A stretch of DNA of 64,000 nucleotides from Mytilus edulis. Lineage: Eukaryota. Under the pieces are notes generated by a model. That model saw only the letters and a list, made by a program, of their open reading frames with translations. It did not search any database and had not been told where the DNA came from. Numbering within the stretch: position 1 is the stretch's first letter; each line of letters starts with the position of its first letter. The position numbers were made by a program, and so were the translations under genes. The DNA lies in the NCBI RefSeq assembly GCF_963676685.1, contig NC_092355.1, forward strand, positions 42,656,001 to 42,720,000, in the 5' to 3' direction. Shown piece after piece: positions 10,191-57,889 of this stretch.

Positions 10191-10667
10191 TCTATCTCGT
10201 GGAGAAAATAGTCGACCAGACGGTTTTCAATCTGACTAGTTAATTATTAGTTTTTTCTTGTTTTTCTTTTCTGAATCTACAAGGCTAATTTTCATTTTTT
10301 TTTCATTTTATAACGGTAGTTGGGTTGTTTTTAAATTACAGACCAGATAGTATTTTGGTCTTCTAATGTTAAGATCTCATTTGGGGTGAGATTATTGAGG
10401 TCAATATTTGCATCGTATTTACATTCCTTTTAGCGATAGAAACGATATAGAAACGACAATTTTCATACTTGTCCAAAATATATCGTCAAAAGACAACGAA
10501 TGGTTTTTAAAACATCAAAAGACAAGCATTAATATTAAGGATAAAGCATCAATTTTTCCTCTGCCTTTAGAACAGAGGGTTTGTTTGTGAAATAAATATT
10601 AAGTAATATGGTGTTATACTGTAGTAGTAAGAAATGTTCTTTTCTTAATCTATTTCAGATTAATAAT

Positions 10668-12491
10668 ATGAGTAAAATGGACAGACAATTGTCTCTTAAG
10701 ATCTTCCAGAATTTGTGTAATATTTTTGGAACAGAGGAAGTTGTGAAAACAAGACGAACGATATTTTGTGTAATAGATAGTGTTCTACAAATTACAAACT
10801 CTACAGTTGTAAGTAGTGGTAGTAGAGCAGAAGGTTTGGACCTCAAGGACAGTGATTATGATCAAATGTTTGTTGAGACACTTTTCCAAGTTTATGAAAA
10901 CAAGAGTAAAGTGTCATTCTTCGAAAATAAAATACCTATAATAATGGACATCAGTGACACAAAACCAGGATTTACAAAGCTCAAACTGAATAACCCACGA
11001 TATAAAGATTTATTGAATATAAACCAGTGGGTGAAGATGATACAAGGAGAAGCATACATTTCAAGTAAATTATTTCGGGAGCACGATTTGCAACACTTTA
11101 TGATTAGTCATGGACCAAGTCAATCTACACCAGATGGTACTTATGATTCTGTACGTTCTTTCCGATGTAAGGAATGGATAACACCTGTTCATCAATGGGT
11201 TTACAGATCCAGATCGTCATGGCCAGATCATAGATTAGTTACGTCAGTTCTAAGGTACGGCGTTTTATTTGTGCCTATTGGATGTAAAGAGTCATTGAAG
11301 GAAGATTTAGAATGGCGGATATCATTTTCTATGGCAGAGAAGCAACTTATTTTTTCCTTTTCTCATACCCAGTTGTTATGTTACGCATTAATGAAAACAA
11401 TTTTGAACGATATTATTAAGGAAATACACGGAGATCTTCTTTGTTCTTATTTTCTTAAAACTATATTGTTCTGGTTATTTGAAGAATCAAGTCCTTTAGA
11501 ATGGCATCCTGGAAATATGATTTCCTGTTTTACGAGCTGTGTAAGACGACTGATTTACTGCGTGGAATATAAAACCTGTCTCCATTATTTTATTCCTAAA
11601 AGCAACCTTTTCGAAGGCAGATTTACTGATCACCAACATAAATCTTTACTTGATACTTTAAATGCAATATACCAATCATTATGGACTTACGTTTTCCATA
11701 CGAATACATTCCAAAGGTTTAGAGAAGAACAAAGAGTTTCATACACACATTATTTGACAGCGTCTTCACTATCATGCTTTTATTACGCGAAATTAATGAC
11801 CCATTTAATGAGTTTTACATACAAACAAGTGATAATCAATTGTATAATTTATATCAAGGATAAAGAATGGTCTACATACCAGATGTCACAGTTTTCTAAC
11901 AACATGATGCAGTTACCAGATATAAACAACTATTCAGAAAGAAACAAATCGGTGTACAAACAGTACCAGATAAGTTTGAAATGCTTCAAGGCAGTTTTAT
12001 ATTCCGATGCTATTTCTGCTTGGTCATTGTTGGCATCGTTATTTTACAAACAAAAAAGATTCAACGCATGTTTAGATATTGTAAATTACACTATGTCAAA
12101 ATGCACTCCTGATAAAATCATGCTAAATGTTGGAAAGAGTTTGGCAGAACAGACTTATTTCCAGAGAGCCAAGGAGGCAGTCGGATTGTTATCAACTTCG
12201 AAACATTTAGTCATTTATTCAGTGCCATTTATAAAACCATTTTCGTTATTGCCATTAGAATTGACCCCTTTAATACTACTTACTGATTATTGTCTATGCG
12301 TTATTCCTTCTGTGGTGTATTTGAATATGTTATCGTTTTTATGTTTACATCACCTTAGAGATCATAGAGGCAAACGTACTGCACTTAGGGATCTAGAACT
12401 AACAATTCGTGAAAGATATTTTATCGTACCGCACATGCTTGATGTCCAAATTGCAAACGCTTGTTTCCGAATTGCTAACAATATGATGTAA
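10668..12491 (+). CDS. Mab-21/cGAS-like receptor (cGLR) nucleotidyltransferase with C-terminal helical (TPR-like) tail, copy 1, intact, 607 aa
   Basis: NTase motif SSGSRAEGLDLKDSDYDQM (hGS..DxD) and likely third Asp in DGTYDSV. Mab-21 motifs EWRISFSMAEKQL, SYFLKTILFW and CLHYFIP..NLF. Start placed at ATG 10668 (MSK), 9 nt after acceptor tttcAG at 10657-10658; all four paralogs share this arrangement. Confidence 0.9.
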   Translation: MSKMDRQLSLKIFQNLCNIFGTEEVVKTRRTIFCVIDSVLQITNSTVVSSGSRAEGLDLKDSDYDQMFVETLFQVYENKSKVSFFENKIPIIMDISDTKPGFTKLKLNNPRYKDLLNINQWVKMIQGEAYISSKLFREHDLQHFMISHGPSQSTPDGTYDSVRSFRCKEWITPVHQWVYRSRSSWPDHRLVTSVLRYGVLFVPIGCKESLKEDLEWRISFSMAEKQLIFSFSHTQLLCYALMKTILNDIIKEIHGDLLCSYFLKTILFWLFEESSPLEWHPGNMISCFTSCVRRLIYCVEYKTCLHYFIPKSNLFEGRFTDHQHKSLLDTLNAIYQSLWTYVFHTNTFQRFREEQRVSYTHYLTASSLSCFYYAKLMTHLMSFTYKQVIINCIIYIKDKEWSTYQMSQFSNNMMQLPDINNYSERNKSVYKQYQISLKCFKAVLYSDAISAWSLLASLFYKQKRFNACLDIVNYTMSKCTPDKIMLNVGKSLAEQTYFQRAKEAVGLLSTSKHLVIYSVPFIKPFSLLPLELTPLILLTDYCLCVIPSVVYLNMLSFLCLHHLRDHRGKRTALRDLELTIRERYFIVPHMLDVQIANACFRIANNMM

Positions 12492-27970: not shown

Positions 27971-29202
27971 TACATGTATAACATAAATATTATTATAATT
28001 CAAACATACTTGTAATCAACCACTTTGTGATCAATGCTTCAGTTACATCGATGATTTTTAGTGTTAGTCCTGTACCGGTGGTAGTAAACTATGTTTTTGA
28101 TGGTATGGTGTGGCTATTATATCATATATATATATATATGTTCCTCCTCGATATGTAGCTCCTTAAGTAATTACGCATCTTTACTTTCATATTCTTAAAA
28201 CCATCTTGTTAATAGAAATACAAATGTGCTGGACAACGAACTGTCTTTTAAACAATAGAAAGACAAAATATAATATTATTTGATAAAATAGCATGACCCT
28301 CTTTTCACATAGAACCGCGAGAAATGTTATCAAAGACGGGAAGAAAATAATATTGTGTAAAAGATAAGTAATGCTATCTTCTTTATATTTTTTTTTTTCA
28401 GATTTATGATATGAGTAAAACCGAGGAAAAAAGAACTTAGGATCTCTTAAGATTTACCAGTATCTTTGTAATGTCATTGGAACGGAGGAAGTCGTGAAAA
28501 CAAGACGAAATATTTTTTGTGCAGTTGATAGTTTTTTTCAAATAAAAAAACCTACAGTTATTAGTACTGGAAGTAAAGCCGAAGGTCTGGACATCAAAGG
28601 GAGTGATTATGATCAAATGTTTGTTGATAACGACTTCCAGGTTCACGAAAACAAGAGTGAAGTAGCATCCTTCGCTTAGAAAAACATAATAATGGACATT
28701 AGTGACACGAAACCAGGATTTACGAAGCTCAAGTTGAATAACCCACGACTCATATACGTATGGGGTATAAACCATTTGGTGGAGATTGTAGAAGGAGAAG
28801 CATATATTTCAAGTAAATTATTTCGTGAGGTTGATTTGTCACATGATATGGTAATTCATGGGCCATGTAAAAGTGATTCAAAAGATAACAAATTAGTTAT
28901 GTCTGTTATAAAGCTCGGAGTTTTGTTTGTGCCTATTGGATGTAAAGGATCTTTGAATGCAGATTTCGAATGGCGGATATCATTTTCTATGGAAGAAAAG
29001 CAACTTATTTTTTTCTTTTCTCATACCCAGTTATTTTGTTACGGACTGCTGAAAATAATTTTGAAAGACATTATTCAAAAGAAACACTATGATCTTATTT
29101 GTTCATATTTTCTTAAAACTATAATGTTCTGGTTATGTGAAGAATCAAGTCCTTTAGAATGGCATCCTCGTTATATGAATTGCTGTTTTATGAACTATTT
29201 AA

Positions 29203-31561
29203 GGGCATCCGATACAGTTTCAAGGGAGTTAACTCTTGGCGCGACGTTAAGCGTTTGAATTCCTGCAAAACGTCACTTTTTTCGGGACGTAATGCGTGAA
29301 ATTTTCCGTAATTAGAAACGTAATGTGGATTTTTCGATGCTCCAATTTTTGTTTCTCCCGCATCTAACTTCTACACCATTAATATTAGTGCATTTGATTC
29401 TAACAGGATAACAGTATAATAAAGCCATAAGAAATAAAACACATTTCTGTTTCTGTGAGATCTTCAACAAAATATCGTATAGTTTGCAATCTCAAGATGA
29501 CTGACCCTTTTGGTGTTACTAATATAAACAATGCATGTCCATTATCATTTTTGATATGGGGAAGGCGCTACCTTAAATGCCAGCTTAATACCAAGACTAT
29601 GTCCTATAAATTGATTGATTGATTGTTGATTGCAGTGGCAAATATTTCATGCAAAAATTTTGACGGGACGTATTATGGTATACGTCTGTCCGTCGTAAAC
29701 ATGGTACAGCATATTATCATAATGTCATGGTTGGTTTTTTTCATGATAGTCAAACTATCTTTATTCTTTTTTGTGAACTTTTTGAGTAACTAAAACAGGG
29801 GTGTTTTTTCACAGTCCGCGCTGTATCTCAAAAACGATTTATGGTTATTGCTGAAAGCTTTACACACTTCTTAGTGATATGAATTTAAAGATCTGTATAC
29901 TTTTTGAGGATGGTTTAAATTTTATTTTTAGAGTTATTGAGTTTATAAAAAAAGAGTGGGTTTTCACATGTCGCGCCGTATCTCAGAAACTATTGAAAAT
30001 TATTGCATAAAAAAATTCACATATACTTGTTAGTTAAATTATTCTTAAGATCTGTATATTTTTTCGTGATGATTCTTAAATTCATTTTTGAGTTCTCAGT
30101 GAATTTTTATTGAGCTACAATTTGGTATCATAGAAAACATGTTGTGATATAAAACTTCCTTTTGAGCAGGAATAAGGAATGAGTCAGGATATACTTCCCA
30201 TGACGTCCTGTACCACCCCTGTGTTGTTTTAAAAACATGTATTATGGTTTTTTTATAAGACGACGAGCGTATGATGCGCTCGTAGTGCAGCTGTTTATTT
30301 TGAAATGACGGAATGACACCAAATACAATGCAATTTCCAATATAATTAATATTTACGAATTGCACAGGGCCTAACTCTTTTAAAGGATAGTTGATATGCA
30401 CTGACTTTCGAACGTGTCCATACGATATCAGTTTAATAGATTAACAACTATAGGTCACTGTACGATCTTCAACAATGAGAAAACCCATACCACATAGTCA
30501 GCTATAAAAACTGTGAATTTTAAAACTGTTAAAAAGCCTCCCAATTTTATTCAATTGTTATCATTGACCCGAATAAAAGTTTAATTTTATGAATTAAATT
30601 GTTAAATTCAAAAAAGTGATTAAAACGTGAATAGAGGAATTTAAAGGAGTATTATAATGAAACAGCATTCCACTATAAAACAACATAAAACAAAACAAAA
30701 ACATCTAGAGTTCAGCAACTGGTATAAATTAATACATACGTTAATACACGAGTGCGTACAGTACATGTACATGTATGTCAAGTTCTAAATTGCCGAGTCT
30801 TTAATTTTAAAATCTGTAAAAAGTATCAACATTCCGTAATCACTTTTCCTAAGATATTCTCACTTAGACCACAAACATAGAGATGTATTTATGATTTACA
30901 TGATTTTTTTTCCGAAAATAATATTACTTATTTATAGGTAGCTCTTTACAAGCAATATTTATACATCTGAAAAATGTCGCAGGTAATTTGCAACGATAAC
31001 GTCGAAAAAGTCTGCCATCGACGTCGTGCACTTTAGTGCTAACGTTGAGGTTACAAAAGGGGGGGCGCAATTTTTAGGATAAATCGCATTTATCATAGAA
31101 TCCAGCACGGTGACATATATCTTTTATTTGAAATTAGGAGAAAGCATGACAAAATGAAGTTTATGCAGAAAAATGATAAAAATGACATTTTTAGAAACAC
31201 TTTATTTCCATGTTTTTTGGATTAAAAAAATACCATTTTGAGCATCTGGTCCGCAAGGTCAAGCAAGGCTTAAATAGTTGTATAGACATTCGTGTAGGGA
31301 TTTATTTTTTCCGTATTGTCACTTATCACAGCTTCAAATTGAACCCGATCTTAATAATTTACTACGAAGAATATTTGCTCCAAAAATTTTATAACATTGC
31401 CTTCCTTTTTTTTACAAAATTGCAAAAATCTCCAATTTTAGCCTTAATTTTCTCGAAAACGAGCACGGTGACCTATGTTTTATTTTATAACTCACCAAGG
31501 CCTACAACATATTTCAAAACTATAAAAATGACATTATATCGAAAAACTGTATCGGATGTCC
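29203..31561. mobile_element. Non-autonomous TIR transposon with TTAA TSD (Kolobok-like) inserted in cGLR copy 2, with nested repeats
   Basis: TIRs gggcatccgatacagttt / aaactgtatcggatgtcc; TTAA at 29199-29202 and 31562-31565. Removing it restores ..NYLRRLIYCV. Confidence 0.85.
29660..30095 (+). repeat. Helentron/HINE-like fragment with ~155-bp internal tandem repeat, nested in the TIR element
   Basis: 5' gacgggacgtattatggtat..gtctgtccgtc. tttcaca(t)gtc(c)gcgc(t/c)gtatctca recurs at ~29807 and ~29962. Confidence 0.45.
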
Positions 31562-34109
31562 TTAAGACGACTGATTTACTGTGTGGCGTATAAAACCTGT
31601 CGCCATTATTTTATCCCAGAAAACAACCTTTTCGAATGCAGATTTACTGATTACCAACATAAATGTTTACTTGACTTATTAAATGATATTTACAATACGT
31701 TATGGATTTATGTTTTCCACACGGATACATTTTAAAGGTTTAGGGAAGAACATGGAATTTCATCATTACCTTATTTGACATCGTCTTCGCTATCATGTTT
31801 AACTTACCCGAAAATGCTAGGTAACTCTTTGTATTTTCTAAACAGGAAGAACATCATCACACGTTTAAGTGATACGAACAATACTGTATTATTAACATAC
31901 ATGATGTCCCTGATTTCAAAGTATTGGATGCAATCACCAGATAGAAACAACTATTCAGAAAGAAACAAATTGGTGTACAAACAATACAAGATCAGTTTAA
32001 ATTGCTTCAAGGCAGGACTTTATCCTGATTCTAATTCTGCTTGGTCATTATTGGCATCGTTATTTTATAAACATAAGAGGTTCAATGAATGTATAGATAT
32101 TGTAAACTACACTTTGTCAAAATGTACTCCGGACAAAATTATGTTCAGTTATTTACAAACCTGCTCGTGCATTTTTCATTGTTATTCAACGCAAATTTAT
32201 TTTCTAAGATACCTGGGACGATCTTATTTCACAAAGGATTTCCATTGTCTACTTATTGTACCTCGAACTTATTTACCCGATGTAGGTCTTTAAGTTGAGG
32301 TTCAATTCAATTAAAGTTAATCGGGCATGACTAATTAGATACGCCCTCTTAAAATCAGGGGGGGTCCGAAATAGGATTAGGAAAAAACACTTAGCAAAAT
32401 ACCTTAATTTACAATTTCAAGAATTTGTTTGATTCAAAGTGCTTTTGTTTGCTTAAATATCTTCGATCAATAATCAGGCGGTATTTTGTGGAAATGAATA
32501 ACCTTTTCCGAACCGGGAGATGTTGGCTGCAATAGGAATTAATTTATAAACAGTCCATATCTCATTTACTTATAGTGGCGGTTATTGATTGTAAATTCAT
32601 GACGTTTTGTATATGGCATTCGTCTACCGTGGAGAAAAAAGAGGGAAGGAGGGCTTAACTTACGAGTTCGATCATTATGGTTCAAATCTATTCTATTACG
32701 GCATACGTTTTACCTCTAGCGAACGCTCTGCCATATTGTAAAAAGTGCCACTCTAAATTTGAAAATATTTGCTTCAAATTGATCCACTTTAAATCTAGTC
32801 GTGAATATGCATGACATATTTGCCACTGGACACAAAGGAGCAATAAATTATTCAGCTTCATTTAGTGATTTATAATCATTTGTCCTCAGTTGATTACAGT
32901 TTCAAACAGTTTTCCAATTTTTATATATTTCATTTTTATTTACATTTGAATTCTTATGCGTAAATCTTAACATTTCTTCCATCATTTTTCTCTTTGCATT
33001 TAATCTTTTTTTTTTTAATATTAAAAAAAACGTTGTCGTAGTACACATCAGGGGTTACATTGTATAATTTCCAGCAAAACTAATAGGGGAGGGACTAGAA
33101 CAGAAAAACAATCTTCATTGAGTGGCAATAACTCATATATTGAAGCGTACTATGACGGCTCTCTCGTCTAGGTGACAACATTTGCTGTTTCAAGTTTATT
33201 TATATCTCAGACTGGTATAATAGTTGTCATAAAAGCAACAACAACAAAAAAAATGATAATGATGAAAACAAGGTTGACAACAATTTATAAAAAAGATTCA
33301 ACTTATTTTGAGCGTTTCATTTTTTTTTTATTATGTTGTCTTGCTGATCGGTTTTGTTATATATTTTTTTTCATCTACTATTGTTCTAGCAAAAGTCACA
33401 AAAAATGTTGTGAAAATCAGCCATGCGACTTATTTAAAAAGATTAAGCTGACCTTTCTTGTTGTTTATACATTTCAATCATTCAACTCGTGCGTAGATCG
33501 TCTTTCCCTCTTATGTTTTTTTAAGGTAAAGATAGCGTGGAATTCTCACTGCACAAGGCATCTGATATATATTCCTATTATATTTTGATCGGACAAAGCT
33601 GCGTACTTGCATAACCAATAAGCCAAACGAACGCACCCATTTAGCAAGGGTATACTGTGGGACGGAGAGGCCTAGAGATGTCAATATTTCTATACCCAAG
33701 CGAATCTTGTTTTTGAATAAAAGGAGATAAAGGTATACATGAATGCGACAGCAACCCAAAGACACAGATAAATAAAAATATTTAGAGTCAACATTCGGTC
33801 TTTTTTTATAGAACATTCCGTATACAGAATAATAAGCTCAAAACCGCGCCATGACTAAATAATAGTTATACGGAGTTAATTCAATAATATTTTCCGTCAA
33901 ATATTATATATCCGAAAAGGCACATTTGATTTAATATTATTTACCGTCAAAGATAATAATCCCAACAATCACAAGTAATTGCCATTTTTTAAATTTGATT
34001 GGTAAAAATTTAAGAAGTTTTAATATATGCGAGTAAAATAAAAACACTTCACTGTATAATAAAACGGTAAAATAAATAATGATAATGGATGACGACCAGC
34101 GGCGAATAA

Positions 34110-41957: not shown

Positions 41958-42294
41958 AAGTTTAAACATATTTATTTATAGTGGATTGGGAAACAAGTTT
42001 TGCAACTTATATTAATCCCTTTCCACTTTGCGGTAGCGAGTGCTGCCTTGTAGCGACATTAACCTACTCTACAAGGGTGCCTTTAACGTGCAAGAGATAT
42101 GGCTCTCTCTTAACATGGGTCAGCCATTTATCGTCCCCTTCCGACGGACTATCATCGTTTCCTTAAGACCATACTCGCAGATGGTGTCAAGGGAGAGCCA
42201 AAAATTGAGTTCCTGAAATTTTCCTCCCAAACGGAAATCGAACCAGGAACCCTTTTGTTGGTAGACCGATGCACTAACCACTACACCACGGCTC
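41958..42294 (-). mobile_element. Full-length tRNA-derived SINE (MetaSINE-like) with 13-bp TSD
   Basis: Minus head gagccgtggtgtagtggttag..ggttcgatttcc; body motif gcacgttaaagg. TSD tcatgattgcgtt at 41945-41957 and 42295-42307. Confidence 0.85.
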
Positions 42295-43662: not shown

Positions 43663-46050
43663 CAGTCGTCCCGCTATACCACACGACCACCTGGGCTGCT
43701 GCAGTGCAGGCGATTTGGTGTCATGATATCACAGTAGCATGGGTTCGAATCCCGGCGAGGGAAGAACCAAAAATTTGCGAAAGCACATTTACAGATCTAA
43801 AATTGTTGGGTTGATGTTTAGACTAGTTGTATATACATTATGTACACAGCCATGTATCACCATCATTGATGGCGATCCGATGGATACATCTGTTGTAGAG
43901 TTGTCACTGACTCGGACATACTTATAAATATAATTATTTTCTGTGACTGTATATTACATTAATTTGTAGGATCCTTTACTATAGATAATTTAGCTGATCT
44001 GTAACAATAACATCTTCATGCTTTATATATCATGTACTGTAGTACGTCGCTAGATTAAAACTGACGAGGAAAGGTAACACACGGCCAGCGAAAGCTCTAT
44101 TATTGTAGAGCCCAGGTGGTCGTGTGGTCTAGCGGGACGGCTGCAGTGCAGGCGATTTGGTGTCACGATATCACAGTAGCATGGGTTCGAATCCCGGCGA
44201 GGGAAGAACCAAAAACTTGCGAAAGCAAATTTACAGATCTAACATTGTTGGTTTGATGTTTAGACGAGTTGTATATACATTATGTACACAGCCATGTATC
44301 ACCATCATTGGTGGCGATCCGATGGATACATCTGTTGTAGAGTTGTCACTGACTCAGACGTACTTATAAATATAATTATTTTCTGTGACTGTATATTACA
44401 TTAATTTGTAGGATCATTTACTATAGATAATTTAGCTGATCTGTAACAATAACATCTTCATGCCTTATATATCATCTACTGTAGTACGCCGCTAGATTAA
44501 AACTGACGAGGAAAGGTAACACACGGCCAGCGAAAGCTCTATTATTGTAGAGCCCAGGTGGTCCTGTGGTCTAGCGGGACGGCTGCAGTGCAGGCGATTT
44601 GGTGTCACGATATCACAGTAGCATGGGTTCGAATCCCGGCGAGGGAAGAACCAAAAATTTGCGAAAGCAAATTTACAGATCTAACATTGTTGAATTGATG
44701 TTTAGACGAGTTGTATATACATTATGTACACAGCCATGTATCACCATCATTGATGGCGATCCGATGGATACATCTGTTGTAGAGTTGTCACTGACTCAGA
44801 CGTACTTATAAATATAATTATTTTCTGTGACTGTATATTACATTAATTTGTAGGATACTTTACTTTAGATAATTTAGCCGATCTGTAACAATAACATCTT
44901 CATGCCTTATATATCATGTACTGTAGTACGCTGCTAGATTAAAACTGACGAGGAAAGGTAACACATGGCCAGCGAAAGCTCTATTAGTTTAGAGCCCAGG
45001 TGGTCGTGTGGTCTAGCGGGACGGCTGCAGTGCAGGCGATTTGGTGTCACGATATCACAGTAGCATGGGTTCGAATCCCGGCGAGGGAAGAACCAAAAAT
45101 TTGCGAAAGCAAATTTACAGATCTAACATTGTTGAATTGATGTTTAGACGAGTTGTATATACATTATGTACACAGCCATGTATCACCATCATTGATGGCG
45201 ATCCGATGGATACATCTGTTGTAGAGTTGTCACTGCCTCAGACGTACGTATATACTTAAAAATATAATTATTTTCTGTGACTGTATCTTACATTAATTTG
45301 TAGGATCCTTTACTATAGATAATTTAGCTGATCTGTAACAATAACATCTTCATGCCTTATATATCATGTACTGCAGTACGCCGCTAGATTAAAACTGACG
45401 TGGAAAGGTAACACACGGCCAGCGAAAGCTCTTTTTTTGAGAGCCCAGGTGGTCGTGTGGTCTAGCGGGACGGCTGCAGTGCAGGCGATTTGGTGTCACG
45501 ATATCACAGTAGCATGGGTTCGAATCCCGGCGAGGGAAGAACCAAAAATTTGCGAAAGCAAATTTACAGATCTAACATTGTTGGGTTGATGTTTAGACGA
45601 GTTGTATATACATTATGTACACAGCCATGTATCACCATCATTGATGGCGATCCGATGGATACATCTGTTGTAGGGTTGTCACTGACTCAGACGTACTTAA
45701 AAATATAATTATTTTCTGTGACTGTATCTTACATTAATTTGTAGGATCCTTTACTATAGATAATTTAGCTGATCTGTAACAATAACATCTTCATGCCTTA
45801 TATATCATGTACTGCAGTACGCCGCTAGATTAAAACTGACGTGGAAAGGTAACACACGGCCAGCGAAAGCTCTTTTTTTTGAGAGCCCAGGTGGTCGTGT
45901 GGTCTAGCGGGACGGCTGCAGTGCAGGCGATTTGGTGTCACGATATCACAGTAGCATGGGTTCGAATCCCGGCGAGGGAAGAACCAAAAATTTGCGAAAG
46001 CAAATTTACAGATCTAACATTGTTGGGTTGATGTTTAGACGAGTTGTATA
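43663..46050 (+). repeat. Tandem array of ~5.4 tRNA-headed 442-bp units
   Basis: Unit heads (agagcccaggtgg) at 44107, 44549, 44991, 45440 and 45882 (periods 442, 442, 449, 442). The first unit starts with an inverted head at 43663-43697. The last unit is cut ~165 nt in, at (TA)n. Confidence 0.97.
44107..44205 (+). ncRNA. tRNA-derived head (Pol III A and B boxes) of the array unit, repeated in each unit; not a functional tRNA
   Basis: A-box-like TGGTCGTGTGGTCTAG and perfect B box GGTTCGAATCC, separated by a long variable-arm-like hairpin (Leu/Ser type). Acceptor stem is poor. Confidence 0.75.
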
Positions 46051-46084
46051 TATATATATATATACATATAACTCGTCTAAACAT

Positions 46085-47852
46085 ATATATATAGTTATAG
46101 TGTCTAAAAATAGCAACAATCAACATTCAATCTATCTAGGTGTGGATCAGTTTGTAAATAAACTAATGCAGTTACTAAATTAAATTATATAAGTGTCTAA
46201 GAATGTAACTTTAACACACTAATGAGTGTTATAAAATTAGTTGTTATTTTTATATATTATTCACGCAATATTTCGCTAAACAAATTAGCTTCATCGGGCG
46301 TGTGCATCTATCTAGGTTAAATCGGATGCATGACAAAAAATATCTTTGTAGCTTGAGCTACACAAAGTTTGTGTAAAAGTTTAACAGATTGATTGATGGT
46401 CTATATAAAACATATTTTTGCCGTTTATTGTACATAATAATTTTTGAATCTGAACAAATAGTTGTTGTAGTTAAATAGAATGAAATTTATGATTTATTCC
46501 TTTGGTTTTGGGTAGAACTGTTTTTCATCCCTCTCATTAAGTCCGTCAGGTTCAAGAGTACGTAGCTGATGCATCCAGAACCTTTCTCTCTGTTTTCTTT
46601 TTTCGGTGTCCCAATTTTGGTTTACCTCAATTATTTGAAAGGTGATATTATCAAAAGTATGTCCTGTTCTTAAGAGGTGTCTCGTAATTGGACAGTTTCT
46701 TTCTTTTGTATAGAACGACCGGTGATTGTTAAGTCTGATGTTGAAATTAGTTTCTGTTTCACCAACATACTGCAGCTTGCAAGTTCCGCAAGTAATAATA
46801 TAAATACTATTTTCCGTTTTGCAATTAGATGTAACATAGATGTTGTATCGCTGCTTTGTTACTGTGCTGCTGAAAGAGTGGTCAGTGTCAGCGGCTTTAC
46901 AGCACTTACAATTGCTCCTACCGCATTGTTTGTAACACCCAAATTTAGAAGTTTCTTGTTTCTTTACTTTTGATGTCACAAGTATGTCTTTGAGATTTTT
47001 GGGTCTGCGATAGGCAATAATAGGAGGTGATGGAAAAATTTCTTTTAAGGAAGAGTCATTTTCGATAAGACGCCAGTGCTTTCGGATAGTAGGTGAAATG
47101 TTTGTCAAATCGGGATGGAAGGTTACAACAAACGGAATTCTATCTTCACGGGTCGTCTTATCTTTGTATTCCATGAGGCTAGCTCGATCTTTTTCTTGGG
47201 CTTTATCAAAAGCGTCTGTGATGTTTTTGGTTTTGTATCCTCTTGATTTCAGCTGTGTTTTAGTTGTCCCAAACGATAGTTAAGTTTGGATTCCGAGGAG
47301 CAAATTCGCTTTAGTCTGATGGCTTGACTGTAATGTATACTCCTGGAGCAGTGTTTCGGGTGACAACTTTTTGGAGAAAGGAACTGGTGTTTATCAGTTT
47401 TCTTTGTGTGAAGGTCAGTTGTCATGACCCCGTTTTTTACAAATGTGGTGGTGTCGAGAAAAGCAATTTTCTCGCTTGAAAATTCAGATGTAAATTTAAT
47501 TGAGTGATGGAACTGATTACATTGATCTAAGAAATCTTGCAAATGTTCTGCAGTATCGTTCAATTTCATGTCAATGTCATCAATAAAACGGAGCTATGAC
47601 AAGGGTTTGTATGGCACACTCAAAAGGATGCGTTCTTCGAGATCCCCCATAAAAATGTTGGCAAAAGAAGGTGCCATTTTTGTTCCCATACTAGTTCCGT
47701 CAATCTGTAAAAAGTGCTTGTCGTTGAAAACAAAGTTGTTATTTTCAAGCACTAGCTTCAGCAATTGAACTAGGCAGTCAGTTTGGGAAAGTTTATCCTT
47801 TCGAGTATTCCACACTTTTTCACACGCGGCTATTCCTTCATCTTTTGGAATA
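46085..47852 (-). mobile_element. 5'-truncated Penelope-like element (RT + Cys-rich linker + C-terminal GIY-YIG), Neptune-type, disrupted
   Basis: RT motifs QIDGTSMGTKMAPSFANIFM, LRFIDD, IAFLD, TDKHQFL..SCHPKH. Linker CYKQCGRSNCKCC. Endonuclease SIYIITCGTCKLQYVGET..RLNNHR..RERFWMHQLRTLEPDGLN. One stop near 47594 and a frameshift near 47250. Confidence 0.92.
46262..46302 (-). ncRNA. Minimal type I hammerhead ribozyme motif downstream of the PLE ORF (U4C core variant)
   Basis: Minus strand reads CACGC-CCGATGA-A-GCTAA-TTTGT-TTAGC-GAAA-TA-TT-GCGTG. Stem I CACGC/GCGTG, stem II GCTAA/TTAGC, palindromic short stem III. Confidence 0.75.
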
Positions 47853-48361
47853 ATTTTAAAACGTGTTCGCTGATCATTTTTGCATTCTATACAGATATTC
47901 ACCTATTTTGAAAAAAGAGTTTTTAAGTAATATATGAGAAAATTAAAAGCACAGTTGTACTATTTTGTTACCATTTTCATTTAAAGTAGTTCAACATGTT
48001 CAACGAGATTCTATGCAAAACTTATCAAATTCTTCTACATAGTCTATTTACTGTACTTTGAACTTCCGAAATGTTCAATCTACATGTATTTGATTTGAGA
48101 ATGATCATTGGTAGCATGCAGATTTCCGATATAAGCACTTTAAAACCTACAGTATTTATATTTTGTTGCAAAAACATCTCCTTTAGATACAAACTGGACA
48201 CATGATGATATTCAAAACAATATAGACACCCTTTGATATCGAAAGGTAATGAAACTGGACCTATCAATAGAATGCAGGTGAATGGTAGTAGGACACGAAC
48301 AAAATTAAGTATGAAAGAGCTGAAGATAAACTTGATTCTTTATCTATTACAGATTTTTAAA

Positions 48362-50203
48362 ATGAGTGATACGGAAAGAGAACTGTCTCGAAAGATTTAC
48401 CAGTATTTATGTAATATCGTTGGAACAGAAGAAGTTGTAAAAGCCAGAAGAAATATATTTCGTGTAATGGACAGGGTTTTACACATTCCAAACCTAACAC
48501 AAATAAGTAGTGGGAGTAAAGCTGAAGGTTTACACCTCAAAGGCAGTGATTATGATGTAATGATTGTTTCTAAAAGAATTCTCGTTTACGAGAATAAGAA
48601 TGTGTCATCTTTTACACCACTGTCCATGGATTTAATCATGGACAACAGTGATACAAAACCAGGATTTACAAAGCTTAAATTTGAATGCATTTCAAACGCA
48701 TACCTTTTGCCTACTAACGCATGGGTTGAGATTGTGGAAGGAGAAGCCTATTTTTCAAGTAAATTATTTCGGGAGCATAAATGTCCAGAGAATATGATTA
48801 TTCATGGACCATGTCGATCTTCCCTAGATGATACTTTTGATTCTGCACGTTGTTTCTTGTGTGAGACATGGATTAAACCTGCTCATAAATGGATAATAAG
48901 ATCGAGACCGTATTGGCCTGATTGCAAACTAGTAAAGGCTATTGTAAAGCGTGGTGTTTTGTTTGTTCCTATTGGTTGTAAAGGGTCAAAAAATGAAGAT
49001 TTGGAATGGCGTATATCGTTTTCTATGGCAGAGAAGCAACTTATTTTTTCCTTTTCGCATACCCAGTTATTATGTTACGCTTTGCTGAAAATAATTCTGA
49101 AAGACATAATCAAGATAAAACATAGTGATCTAGTTTGTTCATACTTTCTTAAAACTATTATGTTCTGGTTATGCGAAGAATCAAATCCTTTCGAATGGCA
49201 TTCTGGGAATATGATTCCGTGTTTCGTAAAATGTCTGAGGCGACTGATATACTGCGTAGAATATAAAACCTGTCTTCACTATTTTATTCCAGATAACAAC
49301 TTTTTCGAATGTCGATTTACTGAGAATCAACATAGGACTTTACTTGATACGTTGCATGATATAGATAATTCATTATGGACTTACGTTTTCCATACAGCTA
49401 CATTTTACAATTTTAGATTAGAACAAAGAGCTTCACAATCACTTTATTTGAAAGCATCTGCATTGTCCTGCTTGGCATTTCCTAAAGGTTTTCATATCAA
49501 TGTGAAGTATAGCAAAATCAAACAAATACTCGCTCGTTTAATTAAATTAAAAAATACAGAACTAAGAACGTACATGATGTCACTGATTTCAAACTACTGG
49601 ATGCAATCACAAGACTACACCAACTTTATAGATAGAAACAAATCTGTGTACAAGCAATACCAAATAAGTTTATGTTGTTTTAAGGCAGGGCTACATTGCG
49701 ATGTTAGTTCAACATGGTTGTTGTTAGCATCTTTATTTTATAAATTCAAGAGATTTAACGAATGTAAATATATTTTAAACTATTGTCTGTCAAAATAAAC
49801 GCCGGATAAAATTATATTAAGTTTCAAAAACACTATGTCAGAACAGACTTTGTTCCAGAAATACAATGACGCGTTTGGATTGCTGTTAACTTGTAAACAT
49901 TTAATCATTAATAAATTGTCGTTTAACAAGCCACATAATTTATTACCTGTAGAATTGATACCTTCAACTCAACAAGATGAACGTGACATAATACGAGTAT
50001 TTCCGTCTGTTTTGTATTTGCATATGTTATCATTTTTGTGTTGTCATCATCTTGGAGATAACAGAGGCAAACTAAATGCACTCCGAGATCTACAACTAAC
50101 CATTCGAGATAGGTACTTTATCTCCACAAACGAGACGCATTTCCAAATTGCATACAGTTGTCTGAAAATTGCTAAAAGTAAGATGTTGTTGGTAAATGCC
50201 TAA
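48362..50203 (+). pseudogene. cGLR paralog copy 3; one in-frame TAA at 49796-49798 gives a 478-aa product with intact catalytic core
   Basis: SSGSKAEGLHLKGSDYDVM, DDTFDSA, EWRISFSMAEKQL. SK*TPDK stands where paralogs have SKCTPDK, and the frame continues open to 50203. Acceptor ttacAG at 48351-48352. Confidence 0.88.
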
Positions 50204-54600: not shown

Positions 54601-56221
54601 GTTTTGGCATTTTTAGGTAAAAAAAAATCATTTGTAAATTGAGTGAAACAGTCTGATCAATACAAGTTTTTCAAACAAAAGATTAATATAAACATGAAAA
54701 AAACTTGTAGATTCAAATACAAATATTTTTTGTTATTGTTCCTCAGAACCAAACCCATTATCTTCCTATAATTCATCTAAAATATGAATCTATGTTATAT
54801 ACAAATTATCAAAAATTTGTACCGGTACCGGGCTTGTGGTTTTGAACGCGAGACGCCCGTTTCGTGTTAAAAGCCACATCAGTGATGCTTCAGTCTAAAA
54901 GTTCACAGACCAAATATTTAACGAGGTTGACACTAGGATAAAAAAAAAAAAGAATAAAGACCGAGTAAAGTACAAAATTGACGAGTATTGACGACCCAAA
55001 TGCCAAAACAAATATCGCTTATACTTATATTTGTTCTTTATAATATCGCATTCTATATTTTTTTACAATATACAACTATTCACCAGGGACCAATGGGCAT
55101 TTGATGTTACCTTCTATAAGTCAACACATGACTTTCAACAATGATCAAAGCCAATACGTAAAAAGTAAAATCACAAAAAAACTGAACTCAGAGGAAAATC
55201 TAATCATAAAGTCCATATTCACATGGCAAAATCAAATGAAAAAAACACATCAAAAACGAACGGCCAAGAACTGTTATTTGATAGTCATCTATAAAACGCA
55301 CCGACATTACACATGTTAACAGCTCATAAAAAAAACCAACGAACTGGATGTATGATTATACGAAAAATCAATAAGAATGAGTGCAATTTGTTACAAACAC
55401 TGACGTAGATGTACCTGACTAAAAATGACACAATAAGTACACGCAAAGTAGATACAATTTATGACCAAACATCAACATCAAAAGTAAAACCTAAACTTTC
55501 TGCATTGTCAAAATATACAGGAAGTAGGAAAATAGATGCATAATGATACATTGTATTGAATATTACGTGTCAATAGGTCTTAGTTTGGACTTTGTCTCAA
55601 TCATCCTTTGTAATCAGATGAAAATCATGCATTAACACACAGCATAGACTGTTTTTCACTCTTTTCATGTTCTTGTCTTCAGAATTTACAAGGCAACTTG
55701 TTTTACTTCATAGAAACCAAACATATTTGGTAAGACAATTTGATTCCGTTCGGATTTGAATAAGTCGTTGTTAACATCCAGCTTTCATTAGATCGTTGAT
55801 TTTCCCGTTTGAATGGTTTTACATCAGTAATTTTGGGGCCCTTTATAGCTTGTTGTTCGATGTGAGCCAAGGCTCCGTGTTGAGGGCCGTACATTGACCT
55901 ATAATGGTTTACTTTTATAAATTGTTATTTGGATGGAGAGTTGTCTCATAGGCATTCACACCACATCTTCCTATATCTATTCATCTAAGCAAGCTTTATT
56001 AGTTCCTTAAAACTACTATGTTTATATGTTTTTCCAAAAACATTGTGTATACAGACAAAAAGCCGTTTTTGAAAAGCTAGAAAGACAAGCATGTATGTTG
56101 CCAAATAAAACAAAATTTTACCTTGTTCCCATACAAACCTGATGACTGTAAGACATGAACAAAAATGTGTAAAATATGAGTAAGATACATGTTATTTCTT
56201 TGTTTATTGCAGATTTGTAAA

Positions 56222-57889
56222 ATGAGTGAAATGAACAGAGAACTGTCACTCAATTTTTACCAGTATTTATGTAATATTATTGGAACAGAGGAAGTTGTGA
56301 AGACTGGAAGAAAGATATTCTGTACATTAGATAGTGTAGTACGAATTTCAAACTTTACAGTTATAGGTAGTGGGAGTAAAGCAGAAGGTTTAGATCTCAG
56401 GGGCAGTGATTATGATCAAATGTTTGTTTTGAAAGATTTCCAAGTTTACGAGAACACGAGGCAAATTTCATCCTTAACAAATAAAGCACCTATAATTATG
56501 GACATCGGTGACACAAAGTCAGGGTTTACAAAGCTCAAGGTGTATAACATACCATATATATACCGGCGTCATATAAACCAGATCACGACGTTTGTAAATG
56601 GAGAAACTTACTTTTCGAGCAAATTAATTCGGGAGCTTTATATGCCAAAAGGTATGATTGTTCATGGACCTTGTCAATCTCTCCCAGATGATTCTTATGA
56701 TATGGCACGTTGTTTCCAGTGTAAGGAATGGATAACACCTGCTTGTCAATGGGTTTACAGATCACGATCGTCATGGCCAGACCATAGATTAGTAATGTCT
56801 GCTATAAAACAAGGTGTTTTATTTGTACCTATTGGTTGCAGAGGATCGGTGAATGATGATTTGGAATGGCGAATATCGTTTTTTATGGCAGAGAAGCAAC
56901 TTATTTATTCCTTTTCTCATACCCAGTTATTATGTTACGCATTAATGAAAATTATTTTGAAAGATATTTTAAAGAAAAAACATGATAATCTTATTTGCTC
57001 TTATTTTATTAAGACTATAATGTTATGGCTATTTGAAGAGTCAAGTCTTTTCGAATGGCATCATCGGAATATGATTTCCTGTTTTAAAAGCTGTTTCAAA
57101 CGACTGATTTACTGCGTGGAATATCAAGTCTGTCTCCATTATTTTATTCCAGAGAACAACCTTTTCGAAGGCTGATTTACTGATTACCAACATAAATGTC
57201 TGCTTGACTCTTTAAATGAGATATACAATTCTTTATGGACCTATGTTTTCCATACGGCTACATTTTAAAGGTTTGGAGAAGAACAAAGAATTTCATCATT
57301 ACCTTATTTAAAAGCGTCTTCACTACCATGCTTACCATACATGTGTGATGTGCTTCGTCTTTCGTGCTTAAGAAACAAATCATAACTCGTATTGTTAGAA
57401 CACACGATAAAGAACTCTCTACACAAATGATGTCACTGTTTTCCATCAATTGGATGCAATTACCAGATGGTAACAATGTTAGAGCAAGTAATTAATCTGT
57501 GTACAAACAATACAAGATACGTTTACATTGCTTCAAGGCAGGACTGTATTACAATGCTATTTCCGCTTGGTCATTGTTAGCATCGTTACTTTATAAGCAT
57601 AAAAGGTCCAACAAATGTATAGATATTGTAAACTATACTTTGTCAAAATGTACTCCTGATAAAATTATGTTAAGTTTCACAATAGTTTGTCGGAACAGAC
57701 TTATTTTCAGAAAGTTTCAGTAGTAGTCGGATTTCCATTAGCATGCAAACATTTTGTCATTAACATTTTGTTGTTTACGAAACCATATTATTTATTACCA
57801 GTAGAATTGAGCCTTTTAATTAAGCATACTATCAAAGCTCTTTTCGAAGTTCAAACATATGTCTCCAAATTGCCAAAAGTATGATATAA
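56222..57889 (+). pseudogene. cGLR paralog copy 4; open for 317 codons, then stops, frameshifts and a distal deletion
   Basis: GSGSKAEGLDLRGSDYDQM and DDSYDMA. TGA at 57173 (NLFEG*FT), TAA at 57266, frameshifted tail ending ctccaaattgccaaaagtatgatataa. Acceptor ttgcAG at 56211-56212. Confidence 0.88.

What the first reader, a model, noticed from the sequence alone, without database searches (positions are those of the whole stretch)
44487..44582. The unit 3' end base-pairs with the unit 5' head, and the junction is a variable hairpin loop containing a Pol III terminator
Seen: cacacggcca pairs with tggtcgtgtg and ccgctagat pairs with gtctagcgg across the junction, capped by a gctct-loop-agagc hairpin. 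Loops read attattgt, attattgt, attagttt, then gctc-T7-gagagc and gctc-T8-gagagc. The neighbouring SINE at ~42296 also starts gagagcc. Inference: a monomer transcript running from gagagcc to oligo-U would have its two ends held together, favouring ligation or RT template jumping. The variable T-run would be the scar.
Basis: partly seen in the sequence, partly recalled or inferred. Interest (0 to 1): 0.7.

Follow-up and report, generated by a model that had tools for sequence, protein, structure and literature searches.

The report
Ribozyme-free circle-forming tRNA-headed retroelement
The two ends of this 442-base jumping element are complementary and are predicted to pair into a conserved rod; its RNA is abundant and reads straight across the likely stop and start point, so it is likely closed into a circle without the self-cutting ribozyme that related elements use, and likely copied into TA repeats by a borrowed Penelope-type enzyme.

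Summary
The family has at least 4,451 junctions. TA-flanked copies start at the purine just after the T-run in 47 of 49 loci, which marks the likely Pol III start next to the terminator. Insertions end inside the unit (positions ~170 and ~267) in (TA)n, never at the T-run: a Penelope-type footprint. RNA-seq shows 525-724 reads per million in three runs, 91-98% one strand, continuous across the junction, rarely running into flanks. Best reading: a Pol III transcript end-joined into a circle. Circularity and the ligase are inferred, not shown. Corrections: the copy at the given coordinates has no terminator and one mismatch; loops are mostly copied unchanged within arrays, which argues against per-junction template jumping; RNA T-length spread matches the genome's. 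A hammerhead-like core is present but not conserved. This scan noted the same family (e1-9541180) and an analogue in another genome (e1-8074481) before.

The parts
43667..46075 (+). Whole insertion: 5.3 head-to-tail units of 441-449 bp, circularly permuted, with a short 5' inversion and a (TA)n 3' end
   Evidence: (43698-46052, period 442); full units differ from unit 1 at 14-22 sites, so the array is a mosaic of subtypes
43667..43698 (-). Inverted copy of the head at the array's 5' end (Penelope-type 5' inversion)
44475..44484 (+).
   Evidence: (97% of cells paired, 3 of 10 pairs changed on both sides)
44489..44497 (+). Helix H2, 3'-tail strand; pairs with 44569-44577
44498..44519 (+). 22-nt bulge; holds the hammerhead-like heptamer (44503-44509) and a motif (44513-44522) invariant in all 34 aligned relatives (used as the search anchor, so its invariance is by construction)
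44520..44531 (+). Helix H1, 3'-tail strand; pairs with 44557-44568, covering the A box
   Evidence: C.C mismatch 44524/44564 in this copy
44536..44553 (+). Terminal hairpin H0 (44536-44542 with 44547-44553), loop 44543-44546; unit junction
   Evidence: 3 of 7 pairs changed on both sides across 34 sequences
44547..44551 (+). Inferred Pol III start zone (purines right after the T-rich loop, 8-12 nt before the A box)
   Evidence: inferred from 5' ends of genomic copies, no RACE
44559..44569 (+). A-box-like motif of the tRNA-like head
   Evidence: sequence; consensus recalled; ARAGORN and Rfam call no tRNA
44626..44636 (+). B-box motif, intact in all 6 copies in the array
   Evidence: consensus recalled
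44272..44277 (+). Main internal reverse-transcription start (TATATA, unit position ~165-170); the array itself ends at this site (46047-46052)
   Evidence: 91 of 149 non-junction 3' ends in bins 160-189
44365..44374 (+). Second internal reverse-transcription start (unit position ~258-267)
   Evidence: 27 of 149 3' ends in bin 260-269
44379..44382 (+). Internal T4, read through by the steady-state RNA
   Evidence: no drop in depth over the homologous site
45432..45438 (+). T7 run, likely Pol III terminator, junction 4 (loop type of the expressed RNA)
45873..45880 (+). T8 run, likely Pol III terminator, junction 5

Best explanation
The junction is where the likely Pol III terminator of one unit abuts the likely start of the next, inside a predicted four-helix rod; the transcript is likely ligated end to end into a 441-nt circle that a Penelope-like reverse transcriptase likely copies into (TA)n. 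Steps: (1) Pol III starts at the purine after the T-run, driven by internal A and B boxes, reads through the internal T4 and stops at the T5-T8 run (start inferred from 5' ends of copies; stop inferred from established Pol III behaviour). (2) The 3' tail, a near mirror of the head, pairs with it over about 38 bp and presents both ends in a U-rich loop (covariation shown; fold predicted). (3) A host ligase joins the ends after end processing (inferred; enzyme unknown). (4) The enzyme of a TA-targeting Penelope-like element nicks (TA)n and primes inside the RNA at TATATA (position ~170) or at ~267 (fixed ends shown; enzyme inferred). It then runs across the junction once or many times, giving permuted tandems with variable 5' ends and inversions. 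On unligated linear RNA it runs off at +1. (5) Variants without a T-run spread through read-through multimers (inferred).
For: Start: 47 of 49 distinct TA-flanked loci (hand-merged from the first 100 rows) begin within a few nt of the head start, and 2 of 49 include 4 or more loop T's; reverse-strand counts are 134 against 59 for a control position. Rod: covariation score above all 500 shuffles in three alignments, and slid controls drop to 21-52% paired against 93-97%. The sister family keeps the same helices with different sequence. Footprint: 118 of 149 non-junction 3' ends lie at two internal sites; no tail ends at the T-run against flank DNA (102 followed by a head, 4 by a head too altered or truncated to score); the sister family ends at ~165-172 and ~264 too. 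RNA: 4702 of 8.71 M, 5972 of 8.25 M and 3852 of 7.34 M records in X21-X23; 91-98% one direction; depth about 950 over the junction against 1100-2000 elsewhere in X21; no place where a fifth of molecules begin or end; only 8-9% of reads run on into unlike sequence against 62% in X24. Run-off into (TA)n at position 170: 46 of ~1233, 80 of ~1483 and 62 of ~1005 reads, against 58 of 100 genomic sites by hand count. About 97% or more of junction reads carry the T-run loop that should stop Pol III (loops with the extra T of the A type 0.6-0.9%, older C/D type 1-2%). Partner: a young Penelope-like family (RT, zinc finger, C-terminal GIY-YIG) ends in (TA)n, and 10 of its 19 loci hold a copy of this family or the sister within 1.5 kb, against 0 of 20 retrozyme loci and 2 of 11 other GIY-YIG loci. 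Precedents: internal priming and AT-rich nicking by a Penelope-like enzyme (PMC11167929, parts 1-2 of 4 read); ligation of a Pol III oligo-U end before retrotransposition (PMC6789731, abstract and start of text); a 5'-P/3'-OH RNA ligase in animals (PMC9931718, abstract).
Against: Short reads cannot tell a circle from a long tandem transcript; no RNase R, long-read or RACE data. T-run lengths in RNA match genomic lengths, so no independent scar is shown, and the only homopolymer control is an A5 (0.7-1.1% insertions). 20 of 100 genomic loops have T<4 and were inherited as subfamilies, so ligation at a terminator is not needed for spread. In helix H1 the head strand hardly varies and each subfamily carries a mismatch. 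No sequence shared between the unit and the candidate partner was found; co-location may only reflect a shared target. TA microhomology creates 5'-end hot spots also in the control. The RNA runs come from other individuals, of a species label not tied to this genome, and the library chemistry is not stated. Shuffle control (a) ignores relatedness, and the structure was drawn from these sequences. The window array is a mosaic, not one circle copied five times.
Confidence: 0.58

Rival explanations
1. No circle: the abundant RNA is a long linear read-through of tandem arrays (Pol II or leaky Pol III), and the rod only protects ends or recruits the enzyme. Arrays propagate because internal priming on a multimer copies more than one unit.
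For: Long arrays exist (at least 10 units on C9; 9 listed sister units on C6). Terminator-less loops are inherited. Loops are identical within arrays. RNA T-lengths mirror the genome.
Against: The expressed form carries T6-T8 at every junction; most genomic arrays are 1-3 units and would give many flank reads, but only 4-6% run off at position 170 and 8-9% overall. The long C9 array has a different loop from the RNA. Several sample-specific haplotypes are all continuous.
Confidence: 0.2
2. The RNA is cut in or near the loop and re-ligated by RtcB, by a degenerate or protein-assisted hammerhead or by an endonuclease, as in retrozymes.
For: A heptamer and GAAA-NN-TH core lies at the junction; 102 of 20,000 shuffled units give such a match. 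The candidate partner has a similar motif in its 3' region (by eye). A protein-assisted hammerhead is reported in a Penelope-like element (PMC11167929, part 2). Cut-and-rejoin would explain exact inheritance of loops.
Against: Core position 9 is T in 52 and A in 24 of 76 scorable junctions and T in 1616-180 of 1616 reads of X21. The sister family and metagenome relatives lack the core. Helix II is weak and helix I is 4 A-U pairs at best. No Rfam ribozyme hit up to E 5. 5' ends of copies fall after the T-run, not at the predicted cut.
Confidence: 0.1
3. The RNA stays a linear monomer with held ends, and reverse transcriptase jumps across the nick, both in transposition and in library making.
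For: Linear 5' ends at +1 exist. Extra non-T letters sit in the run or just before the start in 16 of 48 B-type loops, against about 1% substitutions per site in the head.
Against: Adjacent junctions are identical in 6 of 10 unselected and 28 of 39 further pairs (several from one long array), and rare loops repeat. Junction depth near 60% of the mean would need implausibly efficient jumping in vitro (own judgement).
Confidence: 0.09
4. Ordinary satellite or LINE-dependent SINE; the complementarity is a relic of an old inversion with no function.
For: The tail resembles the reverse complement of the head, and such inversions occur at array ends.
Against: Compensatory changes in H0, H2 and H3; dispersed copies on all 14 large contigs with fixed internal 3' ends; strong one-strand expression.
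Confidence: 0.03

Closest known systems
Metazoan non-LTR retrozymes, including the Mytilus 350-390-nt family (Cervera and de la Pena 2020, PMC7229834: abstract, passages, sections 14 and 17 read; supplement too large to read; Li et al. 2026, 10.64898/2026.07.22.740005: abstract and passages)
   Same: Small non-coding tandem unit, high expression, strong self-pairing, permuted arrays with a fixed internal 3' end (the canonical family in this genome shows it at positions 70-82), proposed Penelope-type mobilisation.
   Different: No conserved hammerhead; tRNA-like Pol III head; unit boundary at terminator and start; 441-475 nt; targets (TA)n. No sequence similarity to the canonical retrozyme of this genome (22,952 motif hits; best match 9 nt). 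Neither paper's main text contains 'Pol III'.
Penelope-like elements and their non-autonomous forms (Craig et al. 2021, PMC8557442: passages and section 6; Frangieh et al. 2024, PMC11167929: parts 1-2 of 4)
   Same: Partial tandems, 5' truncation, 5' inversions, two internal priming sites, TA-rich targets.
   Different: No ORF, no detected sequence shared with the candidate partner, Pol III head; the two priming sites are about 97 nt apart rather than 30-40.
tRNA-derived SINEs (general knowledge; bivalve survey PMC10294476, passages)
   Same: A and B boxes, start about 8-12 nt before the A box, oligo-T end.
   Different: Never primed at its 3' end, no LINE-type tail, permuted arrays; the ends pair into a rod. 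The neighbouring SINE at 41958-42294 is the conventional kind, with a 13-bp duplication.
U6/LINE-1 chimeras made by RtcB ligation (PMC6789731, abstract and start of text)
   Same: A Pol III oligo-U end is ligated before reverse transcription.
   Different: There the join is between two RNAs and needs a 5'-OH; here it would be intramolecular, to a Pol III 5' end, and central to the life cycle.
Schistosoma Sm-alpha repeats (recalled, not read here)
   Same: Recalled as tRNA-like-headed tandem repeats.
   Different: Recalled as carrying an active hammerhead.

Membership tests
Non-LTR retrozyme | Conserved type I hammerhead in each unit | tested here: not met
   Core position 9 T in 52 of 76 scorable junctions and in the expressed form; core absent in sister family and relatives; no Rfam hit
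Non-LTR retrozyme | Short non-coding tandem units dispersed in the genome | tested here: met
Non-LTR retrozyme | Abundant, highly self-paired RNA | tested here: met
   525-724 reads per million in 3 of 4 runs (32 in X24); fold z -4.0 to -5.1
Non-LTR retrozyme | Covalently closed monomer circle | tested here: inconclusive
   Reads continuous round the whole unit and rarely into flanks; short reads cannot exclude multimers
Non-LTR retrozyme | Self-cleavage in vitro | not testable with these tools
   needs transcription assay
LINE-dependent tRNA SINE | Internal A and B boxes with start just upstream | tested here: met
   consensus boxes recalled; Pol III dependence not tested
LINE-dependent tRNA SINE | Insertions end at the transcript's 3' tail | tested here: not met
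   0 of 106 tails end at the T-run against flank; 118 of 149 3' ends at two internal sites
LINE-dependent tRNA SINE | Unique target-site duplications | tested here: inconclusive
   flanks are mostly (TA)n, inspected by eye only; no systematic search
Non-autonomous Penelope-dependent element | Fixed internal 3' ends, partial tandems, 5' inversions | tested here: met
Non-autonomous Penelope-dependent element | Active partner with the same target | tested here: met
   young TA-ending family with 784-aa frames; 10 of 19 loci co-located
Non-autonomous Penelope-dependent element | Sequence shared with the partner's terminal repeat | tested here: inconclusive
   no blastn match to the partner's sequence within 1.5 kb of the endonuclease in 30 loci; Naiad elements and other Penelope families not examined at their 3' ends
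Non-autonomous Penelope-dependent element | Mobilisation by the partner protein | not testable with these tools
   needs in vitro priming assay

The most novel reading that the evidence does not exclude
A family of Pol III transcripts that close directly into abundant circles by joining the oligo-U terminator to their own first nucleotide inside a conserved terminal rod: a third route to animal circular RNA besides back-splicing and ribozyme cleavage, and the life cycle of a class of circular SINEs that parasitise Penelope-like elements.
Probability: 0.5. Interest if true: 0.85.

Novelty: new variant of a known kind. Interest (0 to 1): 0.7.

Why it matters
Animal retrozymes are thought to need a ribozyme to make the circle that explains their tandem arrays. 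This family shows the same footprint without a conserved ribozyme, with the unit boundary at a Pol III stop and start. If the circle is confirmed, cells can ligate a primary Pol III transcript end to end at high yield, which points to an unassigned ligase substrate and a simple expression cassette for circular RNA. It also gives a natural, abundant substrate and a candidate partner enzyme for testing how Penelope-like elements prime internally. Ten literature searches listed no paper describing such an element; Repbase, subscription journals and two supplements were not seen.

Tried and rejected
Hammerhead reading: pursued first, rejected as not conserved. Identity with the published mussel retrozyme: rejected, no similarity to the canonical family of this genome; the paper's own sequences are in a supplement that could not be read. 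ARAGORN and Rfam at gathering score: nothing; at E<=5 only AT-rich microRNA chance hits and weak AgvB. Run search listed no RNA holder on record; raw reads were laid instead. DNA search with the expressed junction returned nothing, likely because common words are skipped. One search queried the wrong stretch of L227 (strand slip); its 30 loci were not used. T-run length as proof of a ligation scar: does not discriminate. The depth step at L024:2700 matches a step 151 nt away, the read length; read as a priming hot spot beside the rod, not as an RNA end (not proven). Naiad as partner: supplement of PMC8557442 holds no match to two unit motifs in the one file held as text; not tested further. 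Earlier-findings look-up by sequence was empty.

Full report
Setting. The window is G000:C12:42656001-42720000 in a 1.37-Gb assembly with 14 large contigs. I infer a mussel-like genome from this and from 22,952 hits of a hammerhead repeat with about 355-367-bp spacing, which fits the published mussel retrozyme (PMC7229834, section 14). The finding is the second junction of a 5.3-unit array, period 442, with an inverted head at 43667-43698 and a (TA)n end.

Observation. The stated helices and loops are in the sequence. The junction folds at z -4.38 with 0 of 200 shuffles as good. At the given coordinates one pair is a C.C mismatch and the loop has no T-run. The neighbouring SINE shares only GAGCC once its 13-bp target duplication is removed.

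Family. An exact pattern finds 4,451 junctions and another finds 7,135 sites at unit position ~170. I fetched all first 100 junctions (65 regions). They fall into loop types B 48, C 26, D 17, A 6, other 3. T-runs of 4 or more occur in 80 of 100, of 5 or more in 64 of 100. A sister family of 475 bp, 68-77% identical in matched parts, appeared beside Penelope-like copies (227 pattern hits including some old members of this family). A metagenome scan gave 25 loci: 23 of the sister lineage, 2 of this family.

The rod is conserved. In 34 chosen junctions the terminal hairpin and outer H1 are 93% paired, with 4 of 11 pairs changed on both sides. In 21 junctions of this lineage, 38 pairs are 93% paired with 7 such pairs. 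In 12 of the sister lineage, 40 pairs are 97% paired with 6. Covariation scores beat 500 of 500 shuffles and slid controls collapse. The rows were picked by me as representatives from 55 listed, the shuffles ignore relatedness, and pair-type counts did not beat shuffles. H3 has different sequence in the two lineages at the same place and length. H1 shows little covariation, as its head strand is the A box.

No conserved hammerhead. A core-like match at the junction is uncommon by chance (102 of 20,000 shuffles; core motif recalled). But position 9 is T in 52 of 76 scorable junctions and in about 89% of X21 reads, the sister lineage lacks it, and Rfam finds nothing. Minimal hammerheads of Penelope-like elements have a 7-8-bp helix II (PMC4209133, parts 1-2 of 4); this has none.

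Where copies end. Of 149 non-junction 3' ends, 91 fall in positions 160-189 and 27 in 260-269; 5' ends are spread over the unit; no tail ends at the T-run against flank DNA. The same holds in 60 and 30 further loci and in the sister family. The canonical retrozyme shows the same permuted layout with its own fixed end. These are the marks of Penelope-like elements (PMC8557442, section 6), whose enzyme nicks AT-rich DNA and primes inside the RNA (PMC11167929, parts 1-2). A young Penelope-like family in this genome ends in (TA)n; 10 of 19 of its loci hold this family or the sister nearby, against 0 of 20 retrozyme loci. In L227 a sister array is fused directly to a truncated copy of it. This is a candidate partner, not a proven one.

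Where the RNA starts. Among 49 distinct TA-flanked loci with a head, 47 begin within a few bases of the head start and only 2 carry 4 or more loop T's (hand-merged from 100 rows of 642). Reverse-strand counts, one per locus, are 134 against 59 at a control site spread over 17 positions. In 29 further regions chosen at the priming site, 5 copies run from +1 or +2 to ~170 with no tail before them. Some templates therefore had a 5' end right after the T-run, 8-12 nt before the A box, where Pol III would start. Terminator and start abut with no spacer.

RNA. Four raw-read runs of a coded species label were laid twice. Majority alleles match a genomic unit at 441 of 441 positions (L024:2522-2962). 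Three runs give 525-724 reads per million, 91-98% in the direction that most stranded libraries give for a + strand RNA; the fourth gives 32 per million, both directions, 62% running into other sequence. In the three, coverage is continuous over the internal T4, over the junction and over the opposite side of the unit (839, 1101 and 606 wrap reads). Run-off into (TA)n at the priming site is 4-6%, against 58 of 100 genomic sites (36 continue, 6 unclear; hand count). Nearly all junction reads carry T6-T8. A Pol III transcript should stop there (established knowledge), and read-through of short arrays should carry flanks. A circle fits best. Depth rises by about a quarter over the 30 nt after the junction, which leaves room for a linear minority.

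Scar or template. T6 makes 12-15% and T8 7-8% of reads in all three runs, while SNP shares vary between runs; an A5 shows about 1%. But genomic copies have the same spread, and slippage on U7 is not controlled. Extra letters at the run or boundary occur in 16 of 48 B loops, a hint of end joining. Adjacent junctions are identical in 6 of 10 unselected pairs against 7% by chance, and in 28 of 39 others. So a junction is mostly made once per template and then copied, which fits a circle or a parent array and not a jump at every pass. The window array itself is a mosaic, with a switch of subtype near the second priming site of unit 3.

Verdict. A non-autonomous, tRNA-headed, Penelope-type retroelement whose RNA ends form a conserved rod. 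It works like a retrozyme but fails the ribozyme test, and fails the 3'-end test for a LINE-dependent SINE. My odds: Penelope-type mobilisation 0.9, start after the T-run 0.85, circle 0.7, direct joining of Pol III ends 0.5-0.6. Ligation of a Pol III oligo-U end has precedent (PMC6789731) and a 5'-P/3'-OH ligase exists in animals (PMC9931718, abstract only); neither was tested here. Earlier notes of this scan, read after my analyses, describe the same family (e1-9541180) and an analogue (e1-8074481); they are not independent support.

Noticed in passing
L227 (minus strand, 2899-2082), L218, L220, L226, L290-L319: Sister family, 475-bp unit, same rod and same two priming sites, different sequence; relatives in metagenome loci L265-L288.
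   Followed up: yes
L216-L234: Very young Penelope-like family (784-aa frames, zinc finger plus C-terminal GIY-YIG) with two 3' ends about 45 nt apart in (TA)n and an atypical hammerhead-like motif in its 3' region (by eye).
   Followed up: partly
   Followed up: partly
window 46262-47900 (minus): Broken Penelope-like element beside the array (GIY-YIG hit) with a minimal-hammerhead-like motif at about 46262-46299 (by eye).
   Followed up: partly
window 41958-42294 (minus): Conventional tRNA-headed SINE of another family with a 13-bp target-site duplication.
   Followed up: partly
window 10596-12491, 48209-50203, 28680-29258, 31736-32293, 56180-57175: Cluster of Mab-21 (cGAS-like) frames, two confirmed by Pfam, some broken; the array lies among them.
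   Followed up: no
window 46031-46084: Short inverted duplication of the element's 3' end across the (TA)n tract.
   Followed up: no
L024:2696-2752, 2575-2612, 2908-2601 (RNA joints): Minor RNA forms that skip the hairpin (55 nt), skip 36 nt, or go back 308 nt; could be deleted circles, genomic variants or library artefacts.
   Followed up: no
L061-L080: Canonical hammerhead retrozyme of this genome has a fixed 3' end about 45-55 nt after the ribozyme and does not favour (TA)n, so it likely uses another partner.
   Followed up: partly
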